Assembly: GCF_026000115.1 (NCBI RefSeq)
Contig: NZ_AP026867.1
Location: 2,905,716-2,969,715, forward strand
Direction of reading: 5' to 3'
From: Aureispira anguillae
Lineage (GTDB): Bacteria > Bacteroidota > Bacteroidia > Chitinophagales > Saprospiraceae
DNA length: 64,000 bases
Below, piece by piece: positions 3-60,847 of the stretch. A program made the translations under genes and the position numbers. Below the pieces are notes generated by a model that worked only from the letters and a program-made list of their open reading frames with translations, searched no databases and was not told the DNA's origin. Each line of letters opens with the position of its first letter. The first letter of the stretch is position 1.

Positions 3-3000
3 CCATGTAATGCTCCAACTTCATTTGACATAGATTGGATTGGATATGATAATGATGATCCAGGTTCTTATAGTACAGTATTAAATGAAGGAAACACAGG
101 TGTTCAGAATATGTCTTTAAGTCTACCTACCGTCGGAAATAGTAGCACTCAAGTTTATTCTGCAACAGGCAATAACAATTGTAATGCACCTCAGGAATAT
201 CGAATTACGCTTTTAATTGAGCATCTCCCACTGCCTGTAACTTATGTTGCTAACAATATCTGTAGTGCAATCCAAATTCCGGTCAACAATACGACTCAAC
301 AATTTGCTTGGTGCGGCAATCAATTACCTTTAGAGCCCAATGAACCAAGACTAGGAAACATCAATGCACATGGTTCTGCATGGTTTTATTTCACGGCTCC
401 TGCTAGTGGTCAAGTAGAAATTGAAACCAATTTAAATAGCACCGATTTTGGAACAGAAATGGTGATATATCATGCAGCCGATGGTGCGGGCTGCCTACAT
501 GGTACTAATAATTGGGTAGTTTATGCAGCTTCTCCTCCTATAAAATCAAAATTTGAATACCTTTCTTATCATGGTGATGCCAATGATAACTTCCCACTTA
601 CTGATGGGAAAGCAACAGGTTATTTTTGTGACATACTTAATGTCCCTGTTTCATTTCCTCCACAAGTTCGAGATGGCCATGCCCTAATTGCAGGAGAAAC
701 CTACTACATTCAATTAACAACCGACCAAAGCAATGAGAGAGGTTACGTTAGTCTTAAAATAGAAGATTTAGGAGGGACGCCTTTCCACAATCATGACATT
801 CCCTGTTTAGGAACAGATGTTTCTGCTGATGCTCAATCAACAACTGTTCGTACAGAAGCTGGAGGACAAGCTTTCTCAACTCAATTACAAAGAGGCACTT
901 TTTTGGGTGGTTCTGCTGTTAGTGACGAAGAAATTGGCGCTCCCTATACAGGAACAGATGCCACACAATTCCGTGCTTATGACTATACGCCAACCTTATC
1001 AAACGGTTTAGATGGTAGTATGTGGATTCAATTTACAGCTGCTAATAGTGGACGTATTTATTTTGAGGCTGATTTTGACAATGCACTTGTCAATGAAAAT
1101 GAAAACACAGCGCTCTATGCCCCAGATCCTCGCTTTGGTGCAGGTACTCCTGCTGATTTATTTTGTTCTAACATTACGCAAATAGCAGATGCAGAAGGTG
1201 GCATTGGTGGCATTTTAGGTGGTACTAAAACCGCCATCATTATGGAACAATGCCTTGAGCCAGGCTATACTTATTATGGTCTAGTAGATCCTCAAGGTGC
1301 AACAACAGCAGATGAAGCAGAAGTTTGGGTCTATGACCCTAGCGCCTCCGATCCTGCCAATAACCCTCCACCAAACGATATTTTATGTTTGAGTATGCTG
1401 GATACCATCTTTGAAATTCCAGTAAAACCAGCCAACCAAACCATTCCTTTTTCTGCGGTAGCGGGTGACAACACCAATGCTTGTATTGAAACGCTGGCAG
1501 GAGAACCATTCTCTCATCCCAATGCAGCCAATCGTGCCGATCAAACGGTTTGGCATTATTTCACAGTACCACCATCGGGGGTAGTTGAAATCAAATTGAG
1601 AGCTTATGTTGGTTTAGATAGCCTAAACTATGCGATTTATCCTTTACTTCAAGACAGTTTGTGTTATGGAGGTTTGCAACCTGCCACTTATACATTAGAT
1701 GGCACACAAGGAACGGCTCAAATTGCCGCAGAATTTAGCGGCACAACAGGTTTTAATGGTGATATTGTAGGACTTTGCTGTTTAACACCAGGTACGGTCT
1801 ATGCGATCCAATTGGATGGTAGTCATCCTGGCGATGAGGGGCAATATATCATTGAGTACATCAATGAAATTGAAGTCTATGCTGGTGATGCTCAATATAC
1901 CGTGCTAGACGACACCTTTAACTATACGGCTGTTGATACAGGGTATATTTGTTTTGGGGACACCCTCTATCCTAGCGTTATGGTAGATGGCAATGGTGTT
2001 TCTACTACTCGTATTGCGAATTGCTTGGACATTGGTTTTGTCATCCAAGATAGTGTGAACATTCCTGATTCTATTATCAATGGTAACTTCACCTTTATCG
2101 ATTCTGTTTATGCTCGTCCACAATATTGGGTCAACGACGGAGCAAATCCTGTCTCTCTAAATGCAGTGCATTACGTCAGTCCTATGGCAGATGAAATCAA
2201 TACTTGGGGAGCACTAACTTGTCCGAGTGCAAGTGCTGAAAATGGAGCACCATTTGTATTTTTAGCGCCCATTAACATCGCTACGACCTACAATTCAACC
2301 AACTGTATAATTGACTTTACCATTACAGGAGGGTTTCCTGCTTACAATGGAACCTTATTTGATTATTTAATTACCAATGCAGCAGGTGATACGGTTCTAA
2401 TGGGGCAATCTGCTAACGGTGCAACCGTTCAGTATGCCATCCCTACAGCAGATATTTACACCATAACCGTAACAGACAACAACGACTGTAACCAAACGGA
2501 AATTGTAAATGCAACGCCTTGTCAAGATCCATGTGTTAATAATCCAGTTATTATTACACCTGATCCGATTGACAGTTCTATTTATACTTGTTACCCAGGA
2601 GGTGATTCTGCCTTAGTGACCATTTTCCTTAATGGTGGACAACCTACGATTACTGCGGGACAAAATTACACTTCTACCGTAAGTGGCTCTACAACTCCTA
2701 ATGGTAATGGTACCTACACTACTCCTGGAACAGGCGCTCCTGCTGCCACTCCTTTCTCTTTTAGTGTGATGGATGGCGATGCTTGGATGGTAATTGTTTT
2801 AGACAACAATGGCTGTCCTGATACGGTTTCAGGCACCTTTGATTATAACTTGATCAATTGCCCTGATTATTGTCTATTAAACCCGATTAACAGTACATTT
2901 AGCTACAACTGTAATATGGATGGAACTGCTTTAGTGCAAATTACCGTTAACGGTGGTCAACCTAGCATTGATGGTTCTAACTACAGCGTTAACATTGCTG

Positions 3001-4616
3001 GTTCTACTGTATTTGGTCAAAACTACCAAAATGCACAATTAGCAGGGGTAATTGGTGGTGCTGCGAATTTCTCTTTTGTCGTTAACGATGGGGATAGCTG
3101 GACCTTTGATGTATTCGACATTAATATGTGTACAGATACCTTGATGGATAACTATACTTTTGATACGGCACACTGTCCAATTTGTAACATGATGCCTGTT
3201 CAAATACTACCCGACCCTGTTGACAGTACGGTTTATACTTGTAACTCTAATGGAGATGCTGTTGTAACACTCTTTATGACAGGAGGTGCGCCATCTTTTG
3301 ATGGCAGTCAATATACCATTACAACTTCTGGATCTAGTATTGCAGGGCAAAACGGTTCTACACAAGAAAATGTAGGCATCTATAACTTTAGCGTAGCGGA
3401 TGGCGATGCTTGGATGGTCATAGCAGTAGATAGCAATGGCTGTGCAGATACCGCAGCGGGCACCTTTAATTATAACCCATTGGCACTAGCAGTACAAGTA
3501 GAACCTTATGTTTGTTTGACAGACAAATCTGCTGATGTTACCATTCGTTTGAGTGGCGGTTTACCTGCGACAGATGGTTCTAATTATTTAGTAACCATCA
3601 TTGGAGCAACAACAACAGGAGCATCTGGTTATCAAATTCCTGTTTTAGGAACCATTGGCGATACCACAGATTATACCTTTAATGTTCAAGATGGAGACAA
3701 TTGGTTGGTTGTTGTAACTGATAACAGTCAATGTGGTGTTGATAGCATTGGTGGAACCTTCCTTTGGAATGCAAGTAATTGTGGCAATATCTGTAGCGAT
3801 CCCACCTATGTTGGCGTAGCTATTAATGGTGGTTCTGGTACTTATAATTACAGCTGTGATTCCGTAGGCAATGGTTTGTTGAGTCTACAAATTACAGGAG
3901 GGTTGCCTGCCCTTACCAATGGCAATGATGATTATATTGCCAATGTAACGATTAATGGTACAATGACTGCTTACTTAGTGAATTCTAATGGCACTTCAGG
4001 CACGCTTAATGTCAACTTAAGTAATGGTGACAACTGGTCTATTGTAGTATTTGATGCTTTGCAATGCGATACACCTTCTTTGGCTGCGACCTTTACTTCT
4101 ATTCAAGCCGTTGCCAATGCTTCTACGCCTCCTAATATGTTAGTGGGGCAAATAGCAACCTTAGATGGTAGTGCTAGTACGGGCAATATCAACAATTATA
4201 GTTGGACACCAACCAATAATGTTAGCAATCCATTGTCTGCCACAACGAGCACACAACCACTTAGCACGACTACCTATGTATTATCTGTTTCTGACACATT
4301 GGGTTGTGTAGATTCTGATTCTGTTTTGGTAGAAGTTGGGCGTTGTATTCCTCACCATGCAGGCTTTACGCCGAATAATGATGGGGTCAATGACTTGTGG
4401 GAAATTCCTTGTTTAAATTTATATACCAATAGAGTACAGGTATTCAACAGATGGGGACAACTGGTTTTTGAAGCGGAAAATTATGACGGTACTTGGGATG
4501 GCACCAACCTAGGACAGCACGTTCCTGATGCCACCTACTATTATGTTATTTCTGTAGACGATCCACAATTTAATAATCCTACTATTTACAAAGGAACAGT
4601 TACTATTATTCGATGA
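3..4616 (+). CDS. SprB-like repeat adhesin with T9SS type B (CHU_C / gliding-motility) C-terminal domain. The 5' end is truncated by the window edge, because the frame is open from base 3.
   Basis: The frame is open from position 3 with no upstream stop. About 100-aa repeats with the pattern C..GG.....V..GG.P...G..Y...V.G recur six or more times (SprB-repeat-like). A PKD/Ig-like segment precedes the terminal motif GFTPNNDGVNDLWEIP...YVISVDD, which is typical of the CHU_C type B sorting domain. Confidence 0.75.
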   Translation, partial: PCNAPTSFDIDWIGYDNDDPGSYSTVLNEGNTGVQNMSLSLPTVGNSSTQVYSATGNNNCNAPQEYRITLLIEHLPLPVTYVANNICSAIQIPVNNTTQQFAWCGNQLPLEPNEPRLGNINAHGSAWFYFTAPASGQVEIETNLNSTDFGTEMVIYHAADGAGCLHGTNNWVVYAASPPIKSKFEYLSYHGDANDNFPLTDGKATGYFCDILNVPVSFPPQVRDGHALIAGETYYIQLTTDQSNERGYVSLKIEDLGGTPFHNHDIPCLGTDVSADAQSTTVRTEAGGQAFSTQLQRGTFLGGSAVSDEEIGAPYTGTDATQFRAYDYTPTLSNGLDGSMWIQFTAANSGRIYFEADFDNALVNENENTALYAPDPRFGAGTPADLFCSNITQIADAEGGIGGILGGTKTAIIMEQCLEPGYTYYGLVDPQGATTADEAEVWVYDPSASDPANNPPPNDILCLSMLDTIFEIPVKPANQTIPFSAVAGDNTNACIETLAGEPFSHPNAANRADQTVWHYFTVPPSGVVEIKLRAYVGLDSLNYAIYPLLQDSLCYGGLQPATYTLDGTQGTAQIAAEFSGTTGFNGDIVGLCCLTPGTVYAIQLDGSHPGDEGQYIIEYINEIEVYAGDAQYTVLDDTFNYTAVDTGYICFGDTLYPSVMVDGNGVSTTRIANCLDIGFVIQDSVNIPDSIINGNFTFIDSVYARPQYWVNDGANPVSLNAVHYVSPMADEINTWGALTCPSASAENGAPFVFLAPINIATTYNSTNCIIDFTITGGFPAYNGTLFDYLITNAAGDTVLMGQSANGATVQYAIPTADIYTITVTDNNDCNQTEIVNATPCQDPCVNNPVIITPDPIDSSIYTCYPGGDSALVTIFLNGGQPTITAGQNYTSTVSGSTTPNGNGTYTTPGTGAPAATPFSFSVMDGDAWMVIVLDNNGCPDTVSGTFDYNLINCPDYCLLNPINSTFSYNCNMDGTALVQITVNGGQPSIDGSNYSVNIAGSTVFGQNYQNAQLAGVIGGAANFSFVVNDGDSWTFDVFDINMCTDTLMDNYTFDTAHCPICNMMPVQILPDPVDSTVYTCNSNGDAVVTLFMTGGAPSFDGSQYTITTSGSSIAGQNGSTQENVGIYNFSVADGDAWMVIAVDSNGCADTAAGTFNYNPLALAVQVEPYVCLTDKSADVTIRLSGGLPATDGSNYLVTIIGATTTGASGYQIPVLGTIGDTTDYTFNVQDGDNWLVVVTDNSQCGVDSIGGTFLWNASNCGNICSDPTYVGVAINGGSGTYNYSCDSVGNGLLSLQITGGLPALTNGNDDYIANVTINGTMTAYLVNSNGTSGTLNVNLSNGDNWSIVVFDALQCDTPSLAATFTSIQAVANASTPPNMLVGQIATLDGSASTGNINNYSWTPTNNVSNPLSATTSTQPLSTTTYVLSVSDTLGCVDSDSVLVEVGRCIPHHAGFTPNNDGVNDLWEIPCLNLYTNRVQVFNRWGQLVFEAENYDGTWDGTNLGQHVPDATYYYVISVDDPQFNNPTIYKGTVTIIR

Positions 4617-4730
4617 TTTTGAGTAGTCAATGCTCTAGTTATGGAGCATTGGCTACTTATTTAAATAACAAATGCTTTTCAGTGCTTTTTCGAAGTGCTA
4701 TAATGCAAAGCATAGAATATTATAAAGAAT

Positions 4731-5705
4731 ATGATTATGAAAAATTTCATTATAATATGTATTGGCTTCCTATTTCTTTGTCATGAAGCAAATGCACAAC
4801 AAGACCCATTGTTTGCCCAATACAATAGCAATGCGTTCTTAATAAATCCTGCCGTTGCGGGCTCAAAAGGCAATCATTCTTTCAGTCTGTTCCATCGTTG
4901 GCAATGGGTTCGTTTTCCTGGTGCCCCACAAACCTTTGGTTTGACTTACCAAGGAATTTTGACTAAAAAAAGCGTTGACAAAACATTTTTAGCATTAGGT
5001 GCTTTGGTATTTGGAGATGTTACAGGGCCTAGCTCCCGTTGGGGTGGAAAAGTATCTTTAGCGTCTCACATTCGTTTGGCGGAGAAAGTGCGTTTATCGG
5101 TTGGTCTTTCAGGACGTTTAGCGCACAACATTATCCGTACAGATATGATCCATTTAATTGATCCCAACGACCAAGCTGTCACCAATGGCGATCGAGGCGT
5201 TACTAGTGCCGATATGGAACTTGGTATATTTCTTTATACCAAAAACTTATCCATTGGTTTTGCTGCTCCTAACTTAATTCAAACAAAAATTGATTATGGA
5301 AATAGTGCCAATGGTAGAGATCCTATTGGGCATGGCTATCGTCATTATTTCTTGACTGCGGCGTACAAGTTTAGATTACCAGAAAAGAAAATGATTATTG
5401 AACCTTCTCTGATGGTAAAATACGTTCAAGGTTCTCTGCCTCAATTTGATGGTGGTATAATGGTGCATGTATTAGACGAACAAATGGCGTTTGGCTTGTT
5501 TTACCGCTCGCCAGCTTTCCTTTCTTTTCAATGCAAATTCTTATTTGACAAAAAAGTTCCTGTATTGCTAGGTTTTGATATTGCATTAAATACCTTTCAA
5601 CAACATAGCCTAGGCTCTACAGAGTTGATGATTGGTTATGAATTTCCTAGTAGCGACTTATTTGCTCCTAAACAAGCCTCTGATGAACCAGATGGAACCT
5701 TGTAA
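4731..5705 (+). CDS. PorP/SprF family T9SS outer-membrane protein
   Basis: A signal peptide is followed by the N-terminal QQDPLFAQYNSNAFLINPAVAG motif characteristic of PorP/SprF (TIGR03519). The gene lies 114 bp downstream of the type B CTD adhesin gene, which is the canonical sprB-sprF arrangement. Confidence 0.8.
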   Translation: MIMKNFIIICIGFLFLCHEANAQQDPLFAQYNSNAFLINPAVAGSKGNHSFSLFHRWQWVRFPGAPQTFGLTYQGILTKKSVDKTFLALGALVFGDVTGPSSRWGGKVSLASHIRLAEKVRLSVGLSGRLAHNIIRTDMIHLIDPNDQAVTNGDRGVTSADMELGIFLYTKNLSIGFAAPNLIQTKIDYGNSANGRDPIGHGYRHYFLTAAYKFRLPEKKMIIEPSLMVKYVQGSLPQFDGGIMVHVLDEQMAFGLFYRSPAFLSFQCKFLFDKKVPVLLGFDIALNTFQQHSLGSTELMIGYEFPSSDLFAPKQASDEPDGTL

Positions 5706-6018: not shown

Positions 6019-7566
6019 TTGGGGATAATAAAACAGCACATGAAGTATCTACTAGAAATTTCTAAAATTGTAACTAAAAAGAAGGTAAAAAAGATTGAAA
6101 TCTTCGATGATCACTCTTTGAAACAAAAAAATTCAAAATTCAATGATTTTTATGGTCTCTTGATGGATGGGGCGTTAAAGGATGATCAAGAAGCTGCTAC
6201 AAAGCTTTACAACAGCAACCCTACCGATGACAAATACCGTCAATTAAAATCTAGATTCAAAAAGCGATTACTCAATACTTTATTCTTTTTAGATGTCAAT
6301 CAATCAGCAACTTCTAATTACAACCGTGCCTATTATTGCTGTCACAAAGATTGGACTTTGGTAAAAATATTGCTCTCTAACAATGCACAACAAACAGGTG
6401 CACAGCTAGCTCGAAGTATTATATCTATTGCGCTAAAATTTGACTTTGCTGATATTGTGGTTAACGCAGCTAGAATACTGAGAGAGCATGCCATGTTGGA
6501 AAAGAATGAAAAATTATATGAGGAATACAATAACCTTTGCCAGCAATATCAAATAATTCTGACAGCAGAAATCGAGTCGGAAGAGTATTACCAGCGCATC
6601 GTTATGAACAGCCTCAAATCAGCTTCTAAGCTACAACCATTCATTCCTCAATTTGAAAAATACTGTGCGAGGTTGCTAGAATTATCTCAGCTACATAGTT
6701 CTCCAGTTATTGTATACAATTATTATATTGTCTCTGCTCATTATTATGAGATGCAAAATGACTATCAAAACTTATATAAAATTTGTCAACAAGCAGAGCA
6801 ATACATTGAAGAAAATCCTCGATTTTATAGAGAAGATAAGTTGGCAGAAATTGCCTCCAAAAAGATGCTTGCCCTCTTGCATCTGCAAGATTTTGCACAG
6901 GGAGAAATTGAAGCAGAAAAATACCTAACTATTTTTGAGCGAAATGATGTCTGCATGAAATTGATGGAATATTATTTACTATTAGCGCTGCATACTCAAA
7001 ATTACTCCAAAGCTCACCGCATATTTGGACGAGCCTACGAAGATAAACGCTTCAAGAAATTAACGAGCGACGAGAAAGAAAAATGGAATGCTTTTGAAGT
7101 TTATCTTTGTTTTTTGCTTTGGAATAATCCTGAACAAAGCTTTGAAAGACCTAAACGCTACAAGCAGTTCAGGGTAAAACGTTTTTTGGAGGAGCCTGTT
7201 ATCTTTCCTAAAAACCAACGAATTTTTACCGTTCTATTGGTCATTGGGCAAGTACTGTTTTTATTAAAAGAAGAACGACTGGGGGAAGCATTTGAACGGA
7301 TTGAACGCCTAAAAGGCTACTCTAACCGATTATTAAAACAAGAAGAACACTATAGAGTGACTCAGTTTGTTCGTTTGCTGCAACAATTAGCGAAGGCGCA
7401 TTTTGATTACAAAAATATTGGAGTGCATCAAAAATACCTTGATCGTCTAGAAAATAAATCATTAAAATACAGAGGCTTGATTCATGAATTAGAGATCATC
7501 CCTTATCAAAACCTTTGGGCAATCATATTAAAAACAATTAACTCCAAGACAATGTTCAGATCATAA
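6019..7566 (+). CDS. hypothetical all-alpha (TPR-like) cytoplasmic protein
   Basis: A long ORF of 515 aa with no signal peptide. It is helix-rich and reads like a TPR-like protein, and I recognise no catalytic motif. Confidence 0.5.
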   Translation: MGIIKQHMKYLLEISKIVTKKKVKKIEIFDDHSLKQKNSKFNDFYGLLMDGALKDDQEAATKLYNSNPTDDKYRQLKSRFKKRLLNTLFFLDVNQSATSNYNRAYYCCHKDWTLVKILLSNNAQQTGAQLARSIISIALKFDFADIVVNAARILREHAMLEKNEKLYEEYNNLCQQYQIILTAEIESEEYYQRIVMNSLKSASKLQPFIPQFEKYCARLLELSQLHSSPVIVYNYYIVSAHYYEMQNDYQNLYKICQQAEQYIEENPRFYREDKLAEIASKKMLALLHLQDFAQGEIEAEKYLTIFERNDVCMKLMEYYLLLALHTQNYSKAHRIFGRAYEDKRFKKLTSDEKEKWNAFEVYLCFLLWNNPEQSFERPKRYKQFRVKRFLEEPVIFPKNQRIFTVLLVIGQVLFLLKEERLGEAFERIERLKGYSNRLLKQEEHYRVTQFVRLLQQLAKAHFDYKNIGVHQKYLDRLENKSLKYRGLIHELEIIPYQNLWAIILKTINSKTMFRS

Positions 7567-7637: not shown

Positions 7638-8648
7638 ATGATGACATTGCCCCTGATTAGCATCCTTATGCCCGTTAAAAACACGGCTCCGTTCTTAGTT
7701 GAATGCCTAGATTCTATTCTTGCGCAAACCTATTCCAATTGGGAATTAATTGCTGTTAACGATCATTCTACTGATGCTAGCTTAGCTATACTACAACAAT
7801 ATGCCAAAGATTATCCACAGATTGTTGTCCTTAATAATCAAGAACGAGGAATCATCCCTGCGCTCCGTTTGGCTTATTCTCACTCCAAAGGACAATTGAT
7901 TACTCGAATGGACTCGGACGACATAATGCCTGTTTTTAAATTAGAGCGTCTAAGTACTTCCTTACTTAGTAGAGGAATGGGGCATTTAGCAACGGGTTTA
8001 GTAGAGTATTTTAGTGCCGAAACGCTTGGCAATGGCTATCAACGTTATGCGCAATGGCTGAATGGGCTCAGTAGTACAGGAGAAAATTTTAAAGAACTGT
8101 ATAAAGAATGTGTGATTCCCTCCCCTTGTTGGATGATTTATCGAACTGATTTAGAACGCTGCAATGCTTTTAATTTGGATCGTTATCCAGAGGATTATGA
8201 TTTGTGTTTTCGTTTTTATGAAGCGGGGTTAATTTGTATCCCAACAACTGAAGTTTTACATCACTGGAGAGATTCGCAAGGTAGAACTTCTAGGCATGAT
8301 CCCAATTATGCGGACAATAATTTTTTAGCAATCAAAATTCATTATTTTCTAAAATTAAGCAACAACAACAAGCGCCCTTTAGTGCTTTGGGGGGCAGGAA
8401 AAAAAGGAAAATGCATTGCCCAAATGCTTACCAATGCCAAGGTGCCTTTTACTTGGATTTGCAATAATAAAAACAAAATTGGCAAAGATATTTATCAACA
8501 ACGCCTCTATCCGACCTCCCATCTTTCAACCTTAATTCAGCCGCAAATTATTGTAGCGATAGCAGAACCTATTGCTCAAAAAACAATCAAAGAATCATTT
8601 AGCAAACAAGGCTTAACAAGCATGAAAGATTTTTTCTTTTTTTGCTAA
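7638..8648 (+). CDS. family 2 glycosyltransferase
   Basis: The N-terminus reads ILMPVKN...ELIAVNDHSTD...RMDSDDIM, which matches the GT2 Rossmann signature and DxD-type motifs. Confidence 0.8.
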   Translation: MMTLPLISILMPVKNTAPFLVECLDSILAQTYSNWELIAVNDHSTDASLAILQQYAKDYPQIVVLNNQERGIIPALRLAYSHSKGQLITRMDSDDIMPVFKLERLSTSLLSRGMGHLATGLVEYFSAETLGNGYQRYAQWLNGLSSTGENFKELYKECVIPSPCWMIYRTDLERCNAFNLDRYPEDYDLCFRFYEAGLICIPTTEVLHHWRDSQGRTSRHDPNYADNNFLAIKIHYFLKLSNNNKRPLVLWGAGKKGKCIAQMLTNAKVPFTWICNNKNKIGKDIYQQRLYPTSHLSTLIQPQIIVAIAEPIAQKTIKESFSKQGLTSMKDFFFFC

Positions 8649-8887
8649 AAAATTTATTTTTTTGGTTAACAACCTTCATTTTTCTTTCCAAAAGCATGTT
8701 TTATCCAAATCTATTACTAATTTTGTAGTCGATTACACTTAAAAACTCCCCGTTTACCAATAATGCTGTATTAAAACTGCTTAATACCCCAACAAACATT
8801 ATATTGTATGCTCATATAGTATAATAATGTCCCTTTTAAGTAGTTTTATTTTGTATAAAATATTCCTACCAATCAATACACAAAAAC

Positions 8888-9301
8888 ATGGAGTACCATA
8901 CAAAAGAGCTAACCATTACGGTCAGACCTGATGATATTATAGAAATAGCGACCAATAAAAATTTCAAAGGAGAATACTCAATAGAAGCCGTAGCAGAGAA
9001 TTTAGCAACCTTTGAAAAAGCAGTTGATGGAAAAGTAAGAGCTACACTGCTCCATTTTCCAGATCATTATGTCAAAAAGGAAGTAATGAAAGGTTATGCT
9101 AATTCTGAAATTAGTACCGCAGCTACTGCTTTATTTGCTAAGTCATTTGCTTCTAAACTAATTGGGAATCTTTTTTTATCCCTAAGAAAACGGCTTGTTC
9201 AGTCTAGAACAATCCCTCCTACCAAGGTTTTTACAGATAAAAAAAATGCCATAGAATGGTTGTTAAAACATATTGAAGCGCACAAACAGCAACAATCTTA
9301 A
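8888..9301 (+). CDS. small cytoplasmic protein, paralog 1 of a 3-member family (unassigned; possibly STAS-like)
   Basis: 137 aa. It shares M(E/Q)Y(H/K)TKE(L/M)T(I/V)T(V/L)RPD at the start, YVKKEV(M/I)K.Y in the middle, and SFASKLIGNLFL then K(V/I)F...A.EWL at the end with the ORFs at 9529 and 11626. Confidence 0.6.
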   Translation: MEYHTKELTITVRPDDIIEIATNKNFKGEYSIEAVAENLATFEKAVDGKVRATLLHFPDHYVKKEVMKGYANSEISTAATALFAKSFASKLIGNLFLSLRKRLVQSRTIPPTKVFTDKKNAIEWLLKHIEAHKQQQS

Positions 9302-9528
9302 ACGAATTTCACCATTAGAGCATTGAGCTTCAGAAGCTAAAATTTCTAGGCATACATTCATAGGTTTTTACGTTATAAATAGTTTTTTCATTTGCGCTAA
9401 AAAAGCAAAAAAAAATCCCTTTTTTTTGCCTAAAAAACCGAAAAATATTCTACATTTAGTGTACATGTTCTACTGTATTTCTAGTTCTCCTCATTCCCCA
9501 AATCATTTTTAAAATTTGTACCACAGGA

Positions 9529-9948
9529 ATGCAATACCACACCAAAGAAATGACGGTCACACTTAGACCAGATAACATTCTAGCTGTAAAAATCAACGAA
9601 GGATGCAATGAGTTAACCACAGAGGGAACCGAAGAATGTCTCCAAGCAATGACAAAAGCGTTAGCACTTAATGACCACCCCAAAGCCATGATCTTTTGGA
9701 TGGCTCCCTTTTATGTCAAAAAAGAAGTAATAAAAAGCTACAGTACCAGTGAGTTTGATGAAGTTGCAGTTGCACTAGTTTGTCATTCTTATATTTCTAA
9801 ATTTGTGGCTAGTGTTGCTCTAAAAATGAGAGAGCGTTTTACTAGTTCAGAACATACCAACCAAAATGCTCCTATCAAAGTCTTCTTAAAAGAAGAAGAA
9901 GCATTTGAATGGTTACAAGAATGCTTAGCCAAGCGTCAGGCTATCTAA
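9529..9948 (+). CDS. small cytoplasmic protein, paralog 2 of the family
   Basis: 139 aa and the most divergent copy. Its conserved 5' leader ends in aggaATGCAATAC, as does the leader of paralog 3. Confidence 0.6.
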   Translation: MQYHTKEMTVTLRPDNILAVKINEGCNELTTEGTEECLQAMTKALALNDHPKAMIFWMAPFYVKKEVIKSYSTSEFDEVAVALVCHSYISKFVASVALKMRERFTSSEHTNQNAPIKVFLKEEEAFEWLQECLAKRQAI

Positions 9949-10031
9949 TTTTAATGACTTCATTAAACCTTTCATAAGTCTAAGAGTCTCAATAACAAAA
10001 AGTTAAGATTCTTCACCCAATAGACTTTATT

Positions 10032-11378
10032 ATGAAATCATTTTTTATTCTTCTAAATTTATTCGCAACGCTCCCCTTCCTAGCTCAACCAACACTACAA
10101 CCTAGCATTGGAATTGGAGCTTTGCCCAATGATAACGATACCATCTGTGCGTTTCCTACCTTTACTGGAAATTTTGATGCAGTGGGGTATGCCATTGGTG
10201 ATACCGTTCCTGATTTTACCTTATATACAACAAATGGAACCCCTGTTAATTTACAAACGGTTTTAGCTCAGGGCAAACCCGTCTTGTTGATTGGTGGAAA
10301 TTTGACTTGCCCAGTCTTTCGCAACAAAATAGCAACCATTAATAATATGGCTACTATCTATAATGGGCTACTAGAAATTTATATTATCTATGGAATGGAG
10401 GCTCATCCTACAAGCCCTAGCCCCTATAGTGGCACTATATGGATTACCAATTCAAACCAACAAGCAGGTATATTACACCCTCAACCCACAACTTATGGAG
10501 CACGTAAGGCACTTATTGATACGCTTTTGACAACTGAAACAATCCTTCCTCCTATTTTGGTAGATGGAGTTTGCAACGAATGGCTAAGCCATTTCGGTCC
10601 TGCCCCTAACAATGCTTATTTGATTGATACAACAGGCGTTGTTTATGAGAAACAAGGCTGGTTTCACAAATTACCAGATGATATGTATTGCGAAATTGAT
10701 AGCCTCTTGGGTACAACAAATGGATTGTGTAATGCCACAGGCAATAATGGTTTATTTACCTTCGCTTATGTTAACGATACCATTGAGTATGGTGCAGCAG
10801 GAACTATCCTTGGTGTAGAAGCTACTCTAAACAATGTCTCAGCAACAGATAACGTTGTCATTGATATTATTCGGAGGTTCGTTAATGTACCCCAAAATTG
10901 GCAAACAGCAATATGTGTAGACATTTGCTTGCCACCTACAACCGATACTACTCAGGTCACTATCCCCCCAGGAATGACCCAAGATTTCACTTTTTACTTT
11001 TATACGGCCCCTACCATCGATAGTTTTGGCTTTGCTCAACTTGGGTTCAAAAATGTCAATAATAATCAAAATAAGTTCCTTCGTTATTTTTGGGCTGAGA
11101 CAGGCAAAACAACTTCCTCTCCAAAAGTAAGCTCAGCAGAGAACGATCTTCTTTTTTATCCCAACCCTTCATCGGGAATTGTTTATTGGACAGGAACAAA
11201 AACCGTTGAAGGAAGCATCCAAATCATAGATTCCAAGGGCGTAAAAGTCAAGCATTTTACGCCTAAAGTTTGGCAAGACCAACAGATACTCAATTTAAGT
11301 ATGCTTCCTAGAGGCTTGTATTTCCTCCAATTATCCAGTAAAAAAGGTCAAATAACAAAAAAAATAATACTTCGATAG
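10032..11378 (+). CDS. T9SS-secreted protein with thioredoxin-fold (redoxin / deiodinase-like) domain and type A C-terminal sorting domain
   Basis: Signal peptide MKSFFILLNLFATLPFLAQ. The segment DFTLYTTNGTPVNLQTVLAQGKPVLLIGGNLTCPVF has a thioredoxin-fold redoxin layout with a single Cys. The C-terminus LFYPNPSSGIVYW...GLYFLQL...KKIILR is a TIGR04183-like CTD. Confidence 0.7.
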   Translation: MKSFFILLNLFATLPFLAQPTLQPSIGIGALPNDNDTICAFPTFTGNFDAVGYAIGDTVPDFTLYTTNGTPVNLQTVLAQGKPVLLIGGNLTCPVFRNKIATINNMATIYNGLLEIYIIYGMEAHPTSPSPYSGTIWITNSNQQAGILHPQPTTYGARKALIDTLLTTETILPPILVDGVCNEWLSHFGPAPNNAYLIDTTGVVYEKQGWFHKLPDDMYCEIDSLLGTTNGLCNATGNNGLFTFAYVNDTIEYGAAGTILGVEATLNNVSATDNVVIDIIRRFVNVPQNWQTAICVDICLPPTTDTTQVTIPPGMTQDFTFYFYTAPTIDSFGFAQLGFKNVNNNQNKFLRYFWAETGKTTSSPKVSSAENDLLFYPNPSSGIVYWTGTKTVEGSIQIIDSKGVKVKHFTPKVWQDQQILNLSMLPRGLYFLQLSSKKGQITKKIILR

Positions 11379-11625
11379 TTTTGAAAACTAAGTCAATGTA
11401 ATTCAATGGTTACTGCAACAGTTTACCAATTATAAAACTTCTAAACCAAGGAATTACATAAATCAATATCAAACTTTTATTAATTTTAATATATTTTATA
11501 TGCTTTTCATTAATTTTATCAAGCAAAAAAAGCTATATTCGCCAACCAGCTGACCTACTATTACATTCCCCATTTTTCTTTTATAAAGAAGTCTATTTTT
11601 AATTTTCCAAATTTGCTCAATAGGA

Positions 11626-12030
11626 ATGCAATACAAAACAAAAGAGTTAACAGTTACAGTTAGACCTGATACTATTATCGAAATTACAACCAACCCAGAA
11701 ATTTCTGAATATACGATACAAGGAGCAGAAGAAAATGTAGCCCTAATGCGAAAAATTGTAGACAAAAAACCTAGGTCTGTTATGGTTTGGATGCCTAGTG
11801 CTTATATGAAAAAAGAAATTATAAAATACTATAATGAATTTGAAGAGGATAATGTAGCAACCGCCTTATTGACCGAATCTTTTGCGTCTAAATTAATTGG
11901 AAATCTTTTTCTCACACTTAGAACTCGACTTGTCCCCAATCAAAAAACCAAAACCAATCCAATTAAGATCTTCAAAGATCCAAACGAAGCGACAGAATGG
12001 TTGCTGGAACACCTTGCAAAATATCAATAA
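11626..12030 (+). CDS. small cytoplasmic protein, paralog 3 of the family
   Basis: 134 aa and about 50% identical to paralog 1, including an identical SFASKLIGNLFL block. Confidence 0.6.
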   Translation: MQYKTKELTVTVRPDTIIEITTNPEISEYTIQGAEENVALMRKIVDKKPRSVMVWMPSAYMKKEIIKYYNEFEEDNVATALLTESFASKLIGNLFLTLRTRLVPNQKTKTNPIKIFKDPNEATEWLLEHLAKYQ

Positions 12031-12338
12031 GCCAATCTGAATGGTTCTTTTTATTTAGTCGTTATTCCGTCAAAAACTATGCAGTAGTGGACAACTTATC
12101 GATAGAACCACCTTATTATTCAACATTACTCTGTTGAAAAATCGTATTCGATTATTACATGAGTGCTACGCAGTTGATTATCAAAATGATGCAATTTTAC
12201 CACTCAAAATATTAGTTATTTGATAATCAATTGAATACAAGATGTTTTTTTGTTTTTTTTTGTAAAAAAGCAAAAAATTAACGGAGTATTAATTCAAAAA
12301 ATACAAAGCTTAAGACAGAAACTCCGAACTAATATTAG

Positions 12339-12346
12339 TATTTTTG
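12339..12346 (+). promoter_or_regulatory. Bacteroidota-type -7 box (TATTTTTG = TAnnTTTG) upstream of cmk
   Basis: A match to the TAnnTTTG consensus 44 nt upstream of the cmk ATG. Confidence 0.3.
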
Positions 12347-12389
12347 TGTACGATATAGAAATAATCGTCTAAAATCACAATGTTCTTTC

Positions 12390-13097
12390 ATGGAAACTTC
12401 TAAAATAACCATTGCTGTCGATGGTTTTGCGGCTTGTGGCAAAAGTACCTTAGCCAAAGCACTCGCTAAAGAATTGGGGTATGTTTATGTTGATTCAGGA
12501 GCAATGTATCGTGCTGTTACGCTGTATTTTCTAGACCACCAAATAGATATACAAGATGCAATGGCTGTTGATGCTGCCCTCGATCAAATTACCATTCATT
12601 TTGAAAATGTAAATGGTCAAAATCAAACTTTTCTAAATCATGTTAATGTAGAGGATGCCATTCGAAGTATGCGTGTTTCTAGCTACGTAAGCCCTGTTGC
12701 TACTATTTCTGCTGTCCGAAAGGCAATGGTTAAATTGCAACAAACAATGGGAGCAAAAGGTGGCATTGCTATGGATGGTCGAGATATTGGGACTGTTGTT
12801 TTTAAGAATGCTGAATTGAAGCTTTTTTTAACGGCATCGATAGAAGAACGTACCCGTCGCAGACTTGCTGAATGGTCAAGCAAAGGAGTTCTAGACATCA
12901 CTAAGGAGGAAGTAGAAAAAAACTTGCGTACTCGTGACCACATCGATTCTACTAGAGCTGATAGCCCTTTATGTCAAGCAGATGATGCTATTGAAATAGA
13001 CAATAGCCTATTGACACCAGAAGAACAACTTCAGTTTGCGCTTTCCTTATCCAAGGAAGCAATAGAAAAAAAGTCCATGGGATTAGTGGCTAGCTAA
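12390..13097 (+). CDS. cmk: cytidylate kinase
   Basis: P-loop IAVDGFAACGKST, and the overall CMP kinase layout and length. Confidence 0.88.
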   Translation: METSKITIAVDGFAACGKSTLAKALAKELGYVYVDSGAMYRAVTLYFLDHQIDIQDAMAVDAALDQITIHFENVNGQNQTFLNHVNVEDAIRSMRVSSYVSPVATISAVRKAMVKLQQTMGAKGGIAMDGRDIGTVVFKNAELKLFLTASIEERTRRRLAEWSSKGVLDITKEEVEKNLRTRDHIDSTRADSPLCQADDAIEIDNSLLTPEEQLQFALSLSKEAIEKKSMGLVAS

Positions 13098-13799: not shown

Positions 13800-15929
13800 T
13801 TATTGTTCTAGATTCATGACTAATCCTAGTTTTTTTAACATTATTTGGAGTGGTTCTAACAATTGTTCGTACTTGGTATCAAAGTCTTTCTCCAAGGTAG
13901 TCAATGCTTTTTTAAGCGCCATTTGTTCCAATTCCATTTCACTTAATAGGGTCTTATATTTCAAATCAAGCCGTTGATTTAAGAGCATTTTTTTATTGAG
14001 CGCTAAGCTTTCAATCGCATCCAATTGTTCACAATAATTGTGTACCGAGTCTTTTATGATTTTTTGTTGCGCCTCATAATATTGATTCGTTTCCTTTTTT
14101 TGAGCTTGAATCGCATCAATAATTTTTTGCCTTGCTTCCACAAAACGATCTTCTGCTTCTTTTTTTGCCTTGACCCTTTGAAATGAGACGTTTTTGCTAA
14201 TTAGATCTAACTCTTCATAAAATTTATACTCCAAATCTTGCCAAATTGCTTGATGTTCAGCATCAATTGTTTTGATCTTTTGTTGCTGTTCATCTGCTAA
14301 ATTTTGTAAACAGCTTGGCAAGTATTTTTTCTTTAGAAAGCGTTGTTTTTCTTCGGATGTTCTACCGACAAATTGTTTCCACAATGGCTGCTGATTTCGT
14401 TCTTGAGTGATTGCTACATTTTTTTGCCATTTCTCTTGATTCAATTGCCTGCATTTTTTTTTGTAGACCTTCGTATTTTCCTCCCATTTTTTTTGCAATT
14501 CGCCAGACGTTTGATAAAAAGAAGAAATGAGTTGTTGGTACGCCTTTTTTTGATTCTGATACCCTTCAAAAAGCAGTTGTATTTTTTCGTTTAACAACGG
14601 TTTCCATTTAGTCGCCACATGCAGGGTTGTCGGCAAAAAAATAGGCGTTGGATCTTGCCTCTTTTGTTTTCGTTGGTTATACCATAATAATAGCGCAGCA
14701 ATAAAAACAATGGGCAAGACGAAATAATATTTTATACCTAAAAAAACAACCGTTCCTAAAGCTGCCACTCCCAATAGAGATTTGCCAATTAGTTTTTTCC
14801 AACTTCTTTGTTCTTCCTTGATCTTGTCAATAAGTTGAGACGACTGTTTGCTAATGGTTGCTCCAAAAGTTGCTTCAAATGAATGCACAAAAATAGAGTT
14901 GGAGGCGATTTCCAAAGCAGGAGTTTCTAAGGTTAAACCATCCATAGGGATAAAATAAGTTGGCGCTTCTGCTTCCTCTTTTTCCTCTCCTAAGGCCAAA
15001 CACCAATCTTCTGCTGTTGGTCTTGCCCCTAGCCGCTGAATGCCTTGTATAAAACAGCGATTAAATAAATATTGTAAGACTGTGGGCAGTTGATAAAAAG
15101 CAGCATGTGGAAAAGGAATCGTATCAAAATAATCTTGGTATACTTTATTGTGTACGTACAATCCATGCTTTACCTTTTGCCCTAAACCTACTGCGGTTTC
15201 ATATTTTCCTTGGGTGGTTGCTGCAAAAGGATGAATGCCTAGCAAAACTTTATAAAAAATAATTGCGATACTAAACTGGTCCCAACTAATTGGGATTGCC
15301 TGTGTCCTTTTTGTTAGTTGATGAAATTCTGGCGGCGCAAACTCTGGTGTAGCCATTGCAGCAGCAAAAAGAGTTTGGTTTCCGTTCACTATCTCAACCG
15401 AATCCATATCAACCAAAGAAACCAAGCCATTTTGCTGAATTAAGATATTATCAGGTTTCAGGTCTACCATTACATAGTGTCCCGTTTTATGGATATGATA
15501 AAGTGCTACTGCTATGTTAAAACAAACCTTTTGGCGCAATTTTGAAGCTTGAATGGTTCCTAATTTAAAACGCTGCCATTCTTCAGACAGGTATTGTGGT
15601 AATTTGGTGGTTGCCAATACCTCTAATAACTCGCCATTGGCAAATGGCATCAAAAAGCCCATAAATGCCTGTTTTTTTTCTAACAAAGCAATGGGCCAGC
15701 TTATCAGCATGGCTTGTTCTTTATTTTCAAATACAGGAGGATTTTGAACCAAATAACGCAACTTGTTCCATCGTTCTTTTGTTCTTTTTGGAGGATGATA
15801 TATTTTAGCAACAATAGCTGCATATCCTTTAGGAGCAACAACTCTATAGAGCAAACCTTCGCCCCCTCTGGCAAAAGGAGTCGATGCCAATTGCAAAATT
15901 TCACTAGTAGTGGTGTTTCTAACTTTCAT
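13800..15929 (-). CDS. eukaryotic-like Ser/Thr protein kinase with a central TM segment and long C-terminal coiled-coil
   Basis: VAKI lysine motif, catalytic loop HKTGHYVMVDLKPDNILI, an activation-segment TPEFAPPEF (APE-like), a hydrophobic TM stretch LLGVAALGTVVFLGIKYYFVLPIVFIAALLLW, and then about 300 aa rich in K, E and Q that read as coiled-coil. Confidence 0.7.
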   Translation of the reverse strand: MKVRNTTTSEILQLASTPFARGGEGLLYRVVAPKGYAAIVAKIYHPPKRTKERWNKLRYLVQNPPVFENKEQAMLISWPIALLEKKQAFMGFLMPFANGELLEVLATTKLPQYLSEEWQRFKLGTIQASKLRQKVCFNIAVALYHIHKTGHYVMVDLKPDNILIQQNGLVSLVDMDSVEIVNGNQTLFAAAMATPEFAPPEFHQLTKRTQAIPISWDQFSIAIIFYKVLLGIHPFAATTQGKYETAVGLGQKVKHGLYVHNKVYQDYFDTIPFPHAAFYQLPTVLQYLFNRCFIQGIQRLGARPTAEDWCLALGEEKEEAEAPTYFIPMDGLTLETPALEIASNSIFVHSFEATFGATISKQSSQLIDKIKEEQRSWKKLIGKSLLGVAALGTVVFLGIKYYFVLPIVFIAALLLWYNQRKQKRQDPTPIFLPTTLHVATKWKPLLNEKIQLLFEGYQNQKKAYQQLISSFYQTSGELQKKWEENTKVYKKKCRQLNQEKWQKNVAITQERNQQPLWKQFVGRTSEEKQRFLKKKYLPSCLQNLADEQQQKIKTIDAEHQAIWQDLEYKFYEELDLISKNVSFQRVKAKKEAEDRFVEARQKIIDAIQAQKKETNQYYEAQQKIIKDSVHNYCEQLDAIESLALNKKMLLNQRLDLKYKTLLSEMELEQMALKKALTTLEKDFDTKYEQLLEPLQIMLKKLGLVMNLEQ

Positions 15930-59782: not shown

Positions 59783-60847
59783 ATGCTATTTTTTAAAACA
59801 AAAAATCCTAGTCCAGAACAATTGGCTTGGCTTACAGCAGCTAATAACTCAGGCATTCTATTGGTTTTCACGCTTGGAGCCAAATTACTCTTTAGTGAAA
59901 GTATTACTTGGGCGCTCGTTTTTTTGATTCCTTTGGTTTCGCTTGGTTTTGGATATTTAGCGATTTACGATTCGTTGCGTCGTTTTATTTATAGAAAAAT
60001 AAAGCTGATTTATAAAACGATTCACAGCATGAAAACGCCAACGACCAATGCTGTTGTTAGTGTAAACATGAAAAATCATATGATAGATCAGGTAGAGCAA
60101 GAAGTGGTAGAGTGGGCAAAAAATTGGACCAAGGAAATTTCATCGCTCAAAAGCATGGAGGTCTATCGCCGTGAGTTTATGGGCAATGTATCCCACGAAT
60201 TAAAAACGCCCATTTTTAATATTCAGGGCTATTTACATACCCTTCTGGATGGAGGAATGGAAGATCCCGATATTAATTATAAATATTTGACCCGTGCTGC
60301 CAACAATACAGAGCGAATGGCAAATATTGTTGCTGATTTGGGATATATTTCAAAGTTTGAAGCAGGAAAGCTTCAATTGCATTTAGTTGATTTTGACATT
60401 TGCCAGTTGATTAAGGATGTTTTGGACGATAGTGAGTTAAAGGCTTCCCAAAAGGGAATTAGCTTGGCGTTTAAAAATCCTAACCAAAAACCGCTAATCG
60501 TTAATGCTGATGTGGAAAGTATTCGCCGAGTAATTGTCAATTTAATTAGCAATTCGATCAAATATGGCAAAGAAAATGGAGAAACGCTAGTTGGGTTTTA
60601 TGATTTAGATAGCAATATTTTGATTGAAATCTCAGACAATGGCAAAGGAATTGCTCAAGAGCATATTCCTCGACTTTTTGAGCGATTCTATCGAGTAGAC
60701 AAAGGACGTTCTAGATCGGAAGGTGGTACAGGTTTAGGCTTGGCAATTGTCAAACATATCTTGGAAGCACACGAGCAAACCATCACTGCTAGAAGTCGTA
60801 TTGAAGTTGGTTCTACGTTTGGTTTCACCTTAAAAAAGGCAAATTAA
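59783..60847 (+). CDS. sensor histidine kinase (HisKA + HATPase_c)
   Basis: Two TM segments, an H-box (MGNVSHELKTP), N-box and G-box motifs (ISDNGKGI, GGTGLGLAI). Confidence 0.85.
   Translation: MLFFKTKNPSPEQLAWLTAANNSGILLVFTLGAKLLFSESITWALVFLIPLVSLGFGYLAIYDSLRRFIYRKIKLIYKTIHSMKTPTTNAVVSVNMKNHMIDQVEQEVVEWAKNWTKEISSLKSMEVYRREFMGNVSHELKTPIFNIQGYLHTLLDGGMEDPDINYKYLTRAANNTERMANIVADLGYISKFEAGKLQLHLVDFDICQLIKDVLDDSELKASQKGISLAFKNPNQKPLIVNADVESIRRVIVNLISNSIKYGKENGETLVGFYDLDSNILIEISDNGKGIAQEHIPRLFERFYRVDKGRSRSEGGTGLGLAIVKHILEAHEQTITARSRIEVGSTFGFTLKKAN

What the first reader, a model, noticed from the sequence alone, without database searches (positions are those of the whole stretch)
8888..12030. 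Three paralogous 135-aa cytoplasmic proteins interleaved with a T9SS cargo gene
Three ORFs (8888-9301, 9529-9948, 11626-12030) encode proteins with no signal peptide. They share a strict N-terminal block M(E/Q)Y(H/K)TKE(L/M)T(I/V)T(V/L)RPD, a central YVKKEV(M/I)K.Y block, and a C-terminal SFASKLIGNLFL ... K(V/I)F...A.EWL block. Copies 1 and 3 are about 50% identical and copy 2 about 30%. I cannot assign the family. Its size and C-terminal helix are reminiscent of STAS/anti-sigma-antagonist-like or SiaC-like small regulators, but the match is weak. Local expansion into a three-member array, with a T9SS-secreted thioredoxin-fold protein inserted between copies 2 and 3, is the pattern seen for diversifying partner or immunity-type proteins, or for small regulatory modules. 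Copies 2 and 3 also share a leader ending in aggaATGCAATAC and a cattcccca block upstream, which suggests common regulation.
Basis: seen in the sequence. Interest (0 to 1): 0.6.

Follow-up and report, generated by a model that had tools for sequence, protein, structure and literature searches.

The report
Tandem STAS-like DUF7793 signalling genes
Three neighbouring genes of the gliding bacterium Aureispira anguillae encode small cytoplasmic proteins of a catalogued but uncharacterised family (Pfam DUF7793) that has the anti-sigma-antagonist (STAS) fold. Tandem sets are normal for this family, which elsewhere is coupled to histidine kinases, and the secreted-protein gene lying among the three is a recent, unrelated insertion.

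Summary

The array is ancestral. Every Aureispira relative examined has 2-3 copies between the same GT2 and cmk genes, and none has a T9SS gene among them. The closest relatives carry c1-, c2- and c3-type genes side by side, so the T9SS deiodinase-like gene is an insertion specific to A. anguillae. Solo paralogues occur at unrelated loci.

Across the wider family, tandem arrays of up to at least 7 genes and 2-4 repeats in one polypeptide are common. The genes are fused to, or overlap the start of, soluble HAMP-headed output proteins (histidine kinases, PAS-STAS). The most likely role is as cytoplasmic input or adaptor subunits of such signalling proteins, without the canonical phospho-serine switch, because Tyr61 occupies that position. 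No partner lies in this window.

The immunity/diversifying reading is not supported. The shared 'cattcccca' leader block is no more than chance would give, although a short C-run does recur upstream of family genes. Verdict: an ordinary member of a known uncharacterised family, of low to moderate interest.

The parts
8888..9301 (+). c1: DUF7793 protein, 137 aa, the first-position array type
   Evidence: PF25056 32.5 bits (cut-off 26). AF2 pLDDT 92.5 with a STAS-like fold. Orthologues are 71% (L009) and 65% (L001, L013) identical at the same array position.
9529..9948 (+). c2: divergent DUF7793 paralogue, 139 aa. A distinct conserved subtype lacking the GNLFL motif.
   Evidence: PF25056 21.1 bits, below the cut-off, and a faint SpoIIAA-like PF11964 hit (E 0.02). 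It is 37-43% identical to c1 and c3. A 61% orthologue sits at the second array position in L009-L011. A c2-type solo gene (P0039) lies after mutL in another Aureispira MAG.
10032..11378 (+). T9SS cargo gene (signal peptide, deiodinase-related/thioredoxin-fold domain, Por_Secre_tail). A lineage-specific insertion, not part of the system.
   Evidence: Domain hits. tblastn finds it in none of the syntenic loci L001, L007, L009, L010 or L013.
11626..12030 (+). c3: DUF7793 protein, 134 aa, of the 'YMKK..IIKYYN' type
   Evidence: PF25056 32.9 bits. It is 57% identical to the third array gene of L009-L011, and also 57% to the solo gene P0015 that sits between a peptidase S13 gene and an AlaDH gene in other Aureispira.
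9946..10031 (+). Spacer after c2, a possible duplicate of the start of the ancestral c2-c3 spacer (left edge of the insertion)
   Evidence: It aligns end to end with 11481-11562 (local score 20 against 13.9 +/- 2.5 in simulations, p about 0.02) (D5, 61, 62). This is suggestive only.
11481..11625 (+). Probable ancestral c2-c3 spacer and c3 leader (145 nt, against 141 nt in L009). Contains the C-run 'ttccccatt'.
   Evidence: Length match, and the L009 spacer has 'tcccccatt' at the corresponding place. The alignment to the L009 spacer is not significant on its own (p 0.13).
9492..9500 (+). 'cattcccca' block in the c2 leader (starts at -37 from the ATG)
   Evidence: Read directly. The exact block is not conserved in the L009 c2-type leader. 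It belongs to a weak recurring C-run signal.
11564..11572 (+). 'cattcccca' block in the c3 leader (starts at -62 from the ATG)
7638..8648 (+). GT2 glycosyltransferase, the conserved upstream boundary of the array
   Evidence: Pfam Glycos_transf_2 E 3e-29. It is syntenic in all Aureispira loci examined.
12390..13097 (+). cmk (cytidylate kinase), the conserved downstream boundary of the array
   Evidence: Pfam Cytidylate_kin E 3e-64. It is syntenic and 83-85% identical in all relatives.

Best explanation
The three genes are old paralogues of the DUF7793 family, a branch of the STAS/SpoIIAA-like superfamily. They encode small soluble cytoplasmic proteins. Shown here: the fold; family membership; a conserved array of 2-3 genes at a fixed GT2-cmk locus across the genus Aureispira; insertion of the T9SS gene in A. 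anguillae only; and, across the wider family, tandem gene arrays, internal tandem repeats, and fusion or start/stop overlap with soluble HAMP-headed output proteins (histidine kinases, PAS-STAS proteins). Inferred: the proteins act as input or adaptor subunits that bind the HAMP-bearing N-terminus of a signalling protein, probably as homo- or hetero-oligomers of paralogues. They may also sense a small ligand, and they change the partner's output by protein-protein contact rather than through the canonical phospho-serine switch. In Aureispira the array is an 'orphan', with no partner gene adjacent or anywhere in this window, so it would act in trans. Each gene has its own leader.
Against: The kinase/HAMP association was shown for distant DUF7793 subgroups (about 25-30% identical), not for the Aureispira subfamily. 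That subfamily never has a signalling gene next to it in any locus seen. No HAMP-headed partner lies in the window: the only short kinase (59783-60847) is an ordinary membrane-bound partner of an OmpR-type regulator. Many metagenome loci are near-duplicates of one another, so independent lineages number perhaps eight rather than 23. Oligomerisation and direct binding are inferred only. No sequence-level link to canonical STAS was found (hhalign probability 0.1 against SpoIIAA; no PDB sequence hit).
Confidence: 0.55

Rival explanations
1. They are carriers or binders of a small hydrophobic molecule (SEC14/CRAL-TRIO-like), as proposed for the DUF3478 SpoIIAA-like proteins, with no dedicated signalling partner.
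Against: The carrier role is itself only a proposal for DUF3478. The best-conserved residues here are polar or charged surface-type positions (T5, E7, Y61, K64, K68, Y70) rather than a hydrophobic pocket. The carrier idea does not explain the fusion and coupling to HAMP-kinases. The two readings are compatible if a ligand is the sensed signal.
Confidence: 0.15
2. They are regulators tied to the conserved upstream cluster (CHU_C T9SS cargo, PorP/SprF, a 515-aa protein, GT2), for example controlling surface glycosylation, secretion or gliding.
For: The order CHU_C - PorP/SprF - ~505 aa - GT2 - DUF7793 array - cmk is kept, on the same strand, in every Aureispira locus examined.
Against: Spacers of 215-240 nt separate GT2 from the array, and each gene has its own leader. 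Paralogues of the same subtypes sit alone at unrelated loci. Outside Aureispira the family shows no GT2 or T9SS association. Synteny within a single genus may simply reflect shared ancestry.
Confidence: 0.15
3. They are canonical anti-sigma-factor antagonists (SpoIIAA/RsbV type) working by phospho-serine partner switching.
Against: In the Aureispira subfamily that position is a conserved Tyr followed by V-K-K, with no conserved Ser or Thr. There is no PF01740 hit. No RsbW/SpoIIAB-type kinase, PP2C phosphatase or sigma factor gene lies near the array. The Ser is not invariant even in the core group.
Confidence: 0.07
4. They are immunity-type or diversifying partner proteins for the adjacent T9SS cargo or for a polymorphic toxin.
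For: A multi-copy local array with a secreted protein gene among the copies. Array composition differs between Aureispira lineages (a/b/c types in L007 against c1/c2/c3 here).
Against: The T9SS gene is absent from every other array and has a redoxin/deiodinase-like domain rather than a toxin domain. Orthologues are 57-71% identical, within the range of neighbouring genes. There is no PADLOC or PHROG match. The family is wired to kinases elsewhere.
Confidence: 0.03

Closest known systems
Pfam DUF7793 (PF25056)
   Same: c1 and c3 score above the gathering threshold over nearly the full model (positions 5-111 of 113 for c3). c2 is a divergent member. They share the length (~130 aa), the P-x-K-x-F...A..WL C-terminus and the tandem arrangement.
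   Different: The Aureispira subfamily is genus-restricted among reference genomes. It has Tyr-Val-Lys-Lys where core members have Lys-Ser-Ile-x, and it is not adjacent to a HAMP-kinase. The family has no described function, and no paper in the searched library mentions it.
DUF3478 / PF11964 'SpoIIAA-like' proteins (PDB 2OOK, 2Q3L, 3BL4)
   Different: Only a sub-threshold PF11964 hit here (c2, 15.9 bits against a cut-off of 25). The positions most conserved in this family (T5, E7, Y61, K64, K68, Y70) are its own. I did not map the DUF3478 switch-region residues (His6, Tyr34, Trp71, Asp72/73) onto this family.
Stressosome STAS proteins RsbR/RsbS (Bacillus, Listeria, Vibrio)
   Different: The kinase here is a HAMP-headed histidine kinase, not the RsbT serine kinase. 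There is no conserved phospho-Ser/Thr and no N-terminal globin-like sensor. Assembly into a large complex is untested.
Anti-sigma-factor antagonists SpoIIAA/RsbV
   Same: beta-alpha STAS topology, small size, cytoplasmic location.
   Different: No DSSG-type phospho-serine, no PF01740 match, and no anti-sigma kinase, PP2C or sigma gene nearby.
SiaC (DUF1987) of the Pseudomonas SiaABCD system
   Different: The match is weaker than to STAS proper. There is no DUF1987 hit and no SiaA/SiaB/SiaD-like genes nearby.

Membership tests
Pfam DUF7793 (PF25056) | Score at or above the curated gathering threshold (26 bits) | tested here: met
   c1 32.5 bits and c3 32.9 bits. c2 scores 21.1 bits, below threshold, but is 37-43% identical to c1 and c3 (E 1e-27 to 1e-37), so it is a member by direct homology.
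Pfam DUF7793 (PF25056) | Conserved C-terminal P-x-K-x-F ... A-x-x-W-L signature and ~130-aa single-domain size | tested here: met
   F115, A121 and W124 are invariant, and P111, K113 and L125 are at least 90% conserved, in 36 subfamily sequences. F and W are invariant in distant members as well.
STAS / SpoIIAA-like superfamily (fold level) | Four- to five-stranded sheet with four helices in STAS order, and significant structural similarity to solved STAS domains | tested here: met
Anti-sigma-factor antagonist (SpoIIAA/RsbV) | Conserved phosphorylatable Ser/Thr at the N-terminus of helix alpha2 | tested here: not met
   By topology the site maps to residues 61-64 (Y-V-K-K). Y61 is at least 90% conserved and K64 is invariant, with no conserved S or T. 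The mapping is by secondary-structure order, not by a residue-level structural alignment.
Anti-sigma-factor antagonist (SpoIIAA/RsbV) | Sequence match to Pfam STAS (PF01740/PF13466) | tested here: not met
   No hit at E<=1 for any copy. hhalign against SpoIIAA (sequence recalled from memory) gave probability 0.1.
Anti-sigma-factor antagonist (SpoIIAA/RsbV) | Genomic pairing with an RsbW/SpoIIAB-type kinase, a PP2C phosphatase or a sigma factor | tested here: not met
   Neighbours within about 8 kb are CHU_C cargo, PorP/SprF, the 515-aa protein, GT2, cmk, PNPOx, a Hanks-type kinase, lpdA, HbpS-like, a nuclease and a LytTR regulator. The relatives' loci show the same picture.
DUF3478 / PF11964 SpoIIAA-like | Score at or above the gathering threshold (25 bits) | tested here: not met
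SiaC / DUF1987 | DUF1987 sequence match and a SiaA/SiaB/SiaD neighbourhood | tested here: not met
Polymorphic-toxin immunity proteins | Located immediately next to a toxin-domain gene, and hypervariable between strains | tested here: not met
   There is no toxin domain in the neighbours. The only secreted neighbour is redoxin/deiodinase-like and is absent from relatives. Orthologue identity is 57-71%, similar to GT2 at 66%. No PADLOC hit.
DUF7793 + HAMP-headed output protein module (association described here) | Family gene fused to, or overlapping the start of, a soluble HAMP-kinase or HAMP-PAS-STAS gene | tested here: not met
   Met in distant members. Not met for the Aureispira array: no such gene is adjacent, and 0 of 55 window ORFs carry the motif. 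The rest of the genome could not be searched.

The most novel reading that the evidence does not exclude
DUF7793 proteins are the input layer of a widespread, undescribed class of soluble two-component systems. One to seven paralogous STAS-like subunits assemble, in a stressosome-like way, on the N-terminal HAMP of a cytoplasmic histidine kinase or PAS-STAS protein and gate it. The Aureispira subfamily would be a derived branch that has replaced the helix-alpha2 N-cap Ser with Tyr, has become uncoupled from its kinase gene, and is driven from leaders that lack the usual Bacteroidota -7 box and carry a C-run element.
Probability: 0.2. Interest if true: 0.6.

Novelty: new member of a known kind. 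Interest (0 to 1): 0.3.

Why it matters
For this locus, the result removes an apparent oddity. The 'paralogues interleaved with T9SS cargo' pattern results from one recent insertion into an ancestral gene array, and there is no evidence of an immunity or diversification system.

More generally, the comparative work gives a first functional handle on an uncharacterised Pfam family that no paper in the searched library mentions. The family is a STAS-superfamily module that is repeatedly fused or translationally coupled to soluble HAMP-headed histidine kinases and PAS-STAS proteins, and it typically occurs in multiples. If confirmed, that would add a new input-domain class to bacterial two-component signalling, with a possible parallel to the multi-paralogue stressosome. 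That claim rests on distant relatives and is untested for the Aureispira proteins.

Tried and rejected
1. PDB sequence search with the three-protein profile gave nothing meaningful (best E 0.9).
2. hhalign of the subfamily profile against B. subtilis SpoIIAA (sequence recalled from memory) found no match, so the phospho-site was mapped by topology only.
3. Foldseek against the PDB gave no hit at E<=0.001. The afdb50 library was unavailable. Model coordinates are not exposed, so no surface or cavity analysis was possible.
I replaced it with a hand-made degenerate DNA pattern, which samples only the 'WLKGF' subgroup.
5. PADLOC, PHROGs and NCBIfam gave no family for c1-c3.
6. Rfam found nothing in the window or, at E<=1, in 8500-12500.
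7. The sigma-70-type promoter scan was no better than shuffles (15 against 14.2). There were five terminator-like sites against 2.4 expected, and none lies in the spacers except a weak hairpin at the end of c2 (9926-9943).
8. The window's short kinase (59783-60847) was considered as a partner and rejected. It has two TM helices, no HAMP-like motif, and an OmpR-type regulator immediately upstream.
9. dN/dS was not attempted, because orthologues are too divergent (57-71% at the protein level) for a reliable dS. Relative identity to syntenic neighbours was used instead.
10. Literature searches for DUF7793 (0 papers), DUF3478/PF11964 and Aureispira anguillae found nothing on function beyond the DUF3478 structure paper.
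Full report
OBSERVATION. Public gene calls for this genome agree. The three are unambiguous paralogues: c1-c3 51% identical (E 4e-45), c2-c3 43% (E 4e-37) and c1-c2 37% (E 4e-27). The N-terminal M(E/Q)Y(H/K)TKE(L/M)T block and the K(V/I)F...A.EWL block are in all three. The SFASKLIGNLFL block is absent from c2 (SYISKFVASVAL), and c3 reads YMKKEIIKYY in the central block. None has a signal peptide or a hydrophobic segment. A profile of the three finds no fourth copy in the six-frame translation of the window. The ORF between c2 and c3 (10032-11378, 448 aa) has an N-terminal signal-like sequence, a deiodinase-related/thioredoxin-fold region (NCBIfam deiodinase_rel E 3e-25, below the equivalog cut-off; weak AhpC-TSA, Redoxin and T4_deiodinase hits) and a Por_Secre_tail T9SS sorting domain. 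The window comes from Aureispira anguillae, since P0001-P0003 are these exact proteins.

THE ARRAY IS ANCESTRAL AND THE T9SS GENE IS AN INSERTION. In every Aureispira-type locus recovered, the gene order is CHU_C T9SS cargo - PorP/SprF - a ~505-aa protein - (a 179-aa protein) - GT2 - DUF7793 array - cmk - (PNPOx and a Hanks kinase on the other strand) - lpdA. The array has two copies in L001 and three in L006-L008 and L009-L011. tblastn with the 448-aa T9SS protein finds nothing in any of these loci, whereas all other neighbours are found. In the closest relatives (L009-L011) the three genes are a c1 type (71%), a c2 type (61%) and a c3 type (57%), directly adjacent and in the same order. c1, c2 and c3 are thus three old paralogue lineages, and A. 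anguillae acquired the T9SS gene between the second and the third. The 86 nt after c2 (9946-10031) align end to end with 11481-11562 (p about 0.02). The 145 nt from 11481 to the c3 start match the length of the 141-nt c2-c3 spacer in L009. Together these suggest that part of the spacer was duplicated at the insertion, though the evidence is no more than suggestive. In a more distant lineage (L007) the array holds different subtypes (a, b, c; 35-48% to c1-c3). There the c3-like gene (P0015, 57% to c3) sits alone between a peptidase S13 gene and an AlaDH gene, and a c2-like gene (P0039) sits alone after mutL.

NOT AN IMMUNITY OR DIVERSIFYING SYSTEM. Between the window and L009, identities are lpdA 95%, HbpS-like 85%, cmk 83%, PorP 78%, the 515-aa protein 78%, PNPOx 76%, c1 71%, GT2 66%, c2 61%, c3 57% and the Hanks kinase 50%. 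The three genes evolve faster than core metabolism but within the range of their non-essential neighbours. No toxin domain is nearby, and there is no PADLOC or PHROG match.

WHAT THE FAMILY DOES ELSEWHERE. An exhaustive profile search finds 1,067 cluster representatives at E<=1e-3, mostly 120-150 aa. The longer ones fall into two kinds. The first is two, three or four DUF7793 repeats in one chain. The second is sensor kinases: 2xDUF7793-(HAMP)-PAS-PAS-HisKA-HATPase(-REC) in P0188 and P0205, and REC-PAS-HisKA_3-HATPase-DUF7793 in P0128. None of these has a TM segment. In two unrelated lineages a stand-alone DUF7793 gene overlaps by 4 nt the start of a short kinase with no sensor domain (L019: HisKA_2-HATPase, 277 aa; L023/L024: HisKA-HATPase, 317 aa).

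A degenerate-motif scan of metagenome contigs gave 61 loci, 44 of them with family ORFs. Runs of adjacent family genes had sizes of 1 (33 loci), 2 (4), 4 (4), 5 (1) and 7 (2), and many are cut by contig ends. The downstream same-strand neighbour usually overlaps the last family gene. Of 23 such neighbours, about 16 carry HAMP, PAS, HisKA/HATPase or STAS domains: seven kinases (one directly after a 7-gene array), two PAS-STAS proteins, and several truncated HAMP or HAMP-PAS fragments. Upstream neighbours are heterogeneous. The partners share an N-terminal soluble HAMP-like module. Its signature G[IL]N.L.EEL[EA] is in 12 of 26 downstream neighbours (more if near-variants are counted) and lies just after the DUF7793 pair in both fused kinases. 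It is in 0 of 20 upstream neighbours and 0 of 55 window ORFs. P0072, the relative with context that is closest to the Aureispira type, is followed by a CheY-like receiver gene and then a CheB gene. Several of these metagenome loci are near-duplicates, so the number of independent lineages is perhaps eight.

MECHANISM. Shown: the fold, the family, the cytoplasmic location, the multiplicity (as genes and as repeats), and physical or translational coupling to HAMP-headed output proteins in distant members. Inferred: DUF7793 proteins are input or adaptor subunits that dock on the HAMP-bearing N-terminus of a soluble kinase or PAS-STAS protein and set its output. The gene arrays and fused repeats point to homo- or hetero-oligomers, by Rosetta-stone logic. 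The DUF3478 precedent suggests a dimer with open and closed states and a possible small-ligand site.

The canonical STAS phospho-switch is unlikely here. By topology the SpoIIAA Ser58 position (the N-cap of helix alpha2) maps to residues 61-64 (Y-V-K-K), where Y61 is at least 90% conserved and K64 is invariant. In the core DUF7793 group that N-cap is often Ser (KS[IM]x[RK]EAR) but not always, being Ala or Phe in some members. For the Aureispira array no partner is adjacent in any locus, and none lies in this window. The only short kinase (59783-60847) is a membrane-bound partner of the OmpR-type regulator immediately upstream. The functional assignment for these three genes therefore rests on family-level homology, and I put it at about 0.55.

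LEADERS. The literal observation is correct: 'cattcccca' is at 9492-9500 and 11564-11572, and both leaders end in agga before ATGCAATAC. But a shared 9-mer or longer arises in about 72% of simulated leader pairs. The two leaders are not similar overall (z -0.5), and the exact block is not kept in the orthologous leaders of L009.

A weaker signal does recur. A T-flanked C-run lies 25-70 nt upstream of the ATG in many family leaders across species: CCCC in 7 of 13 family leaders against 8 of 75 control leaders from the same loci, and TCCC in 8 of 13 against 12 of 75 (Fisher p about 0.001). None of the 13 family leaders has the Bacteroidota -7 box TAnnTTTG, against 20 of 75 controls. These tests are post hoc and the leaders are not phylogenetically independent, so I record them as unexplained rather than as evidence of co-regulation. 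Rfam finds no RNA family in the spacers.

COMPARISON AND VERDICT. The three genes are members of DUF7793. They are STAS-superfamily proteins by fold. They fail the tested defining features of anti-sigma antagonists, SiaC, PF11964 and immunity proteins (see the membership table). They most resemble, in logic though not in sequence, the multi-paralogue STAS proteins of the stressosome. The three-gene array is typical of its family, and the T9SS interleaving is incidental. The finding is an ordinary new member of a catalogued, uncharacterised family. The one point of wider interest is the family-level link to soluble HAMP-headed kinases, which no paper in the searched library describes.

Noticed in passing
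window 8648-8887, 9302-9528, 11379-11625; family leaders in L001, L007, L009, L013-L015: A short T-flanked C-run (CCC/CCCC) 25-70 nt upstream of the ATG is enriched in DUF7793 leaders (CCCC in 7/13 against 8/75 controls). None of the 13 family leaders has the Bacteroidota -7 box TAnnTTTG, against 20/75 controls. This could be a site for an alternative sigma factor or a transcription factor. The test is post hoc and not phylogenetically corrected.
   Followed up: partly
window 8625-8652, 9377-9437, 12241-12277: A recurring A/T-rich intergenic element of the form TTTTTTGC(T/C)AAAAAA / AAAAAAGCAAAAAA lies downstream of GT2, c1 and c3 (repeat families D2 and D4). One copy forms an A8/T8 hairpin, GCAAAAAAAAATCCCTTTTTTTTGC, at about 9406-9431. 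It may be an atypical terminator or a REP-like element.
   Followed up: no
window about 12319-12358 (cmk leader), compared with L009 about 6400-6440: A block of about 40 nt, agaaactccgaactaatattagtatttttgtgtacgatat, upstream of cmk is identical between A. anguillae and a relative whose other spacers cannot be aligned. It contains TATTTTTG, a match to the Bacteroidota -7 box, so it is probably the conserved cmk promoter.
   Followed up: no
window 10032-11378: A T9SS-secreted deiodinase-related/thioredoxin-fold protein with a ...GGNLTCPVF... motif that resembles the deiodinase/peroxiredoxin active-site region. It is present only in A. anguillae at this locus, and its origin was not traced.
   Followed up: partly
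window 13800-15929 (- strand): A 709-aa Hanks-type Ser/Thr kinase with a long, low-complexity, coiled-coil-like C-terminal half. It is syntenic near the array in most Aureispira loci but evolves fast (50% to L009) and is absent from L001. A link to the DUF7793 proteins (for example via T5 or Y61) is pure speculation.
   Followed up: no
window 6019-7566: A 515-aa protein with no Pfam or PADLOC hit, 69-78% conserved and always located between PorP/SprF and GT2 in Aureispira. A 179-aa ORF that follows it in relatives is missing in A. anguillae.
   Followed up: no
L074 4414-7329 (- strand); L031 whole contig; L077; L085: Arrays of 5 to at least 7 consecutive, often overlapping, DUF7793 genes. In L074 and L085 the array is followed directly by a HAMP-histidine kinase. 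These are good material for testing hetero-oligomer formation.
   Followed up: partly
L059 1188-2333; L082 178-1299: Some DUF7793 genes are coupled to HAMP-PAS-STAS (PF01740) proteins rather than to a kinase. This is a YtvA/RsbR-like architecture and places two different STAS-superfamily modules in one operon.
   Followed up: no
window 111-5705 and 49800-57425: Two other T9SS cargo loci. One is a 1501-aa CHU_C (type B CTD) protein with its PorP/SprF partner. The other is a 2541-aa protein with Reelin-subrepeat-B, BNR and PKD domains and a Por_Secre_tail.
   Followed up: no
window 19877-23634: A LytTR response regulator lies next to a 995-aa Reg_prop/Y_Y_Y/His_kinase sensor about 8 kb from the array. 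There is no evidence that it is linked to the array.
   Followed up: no
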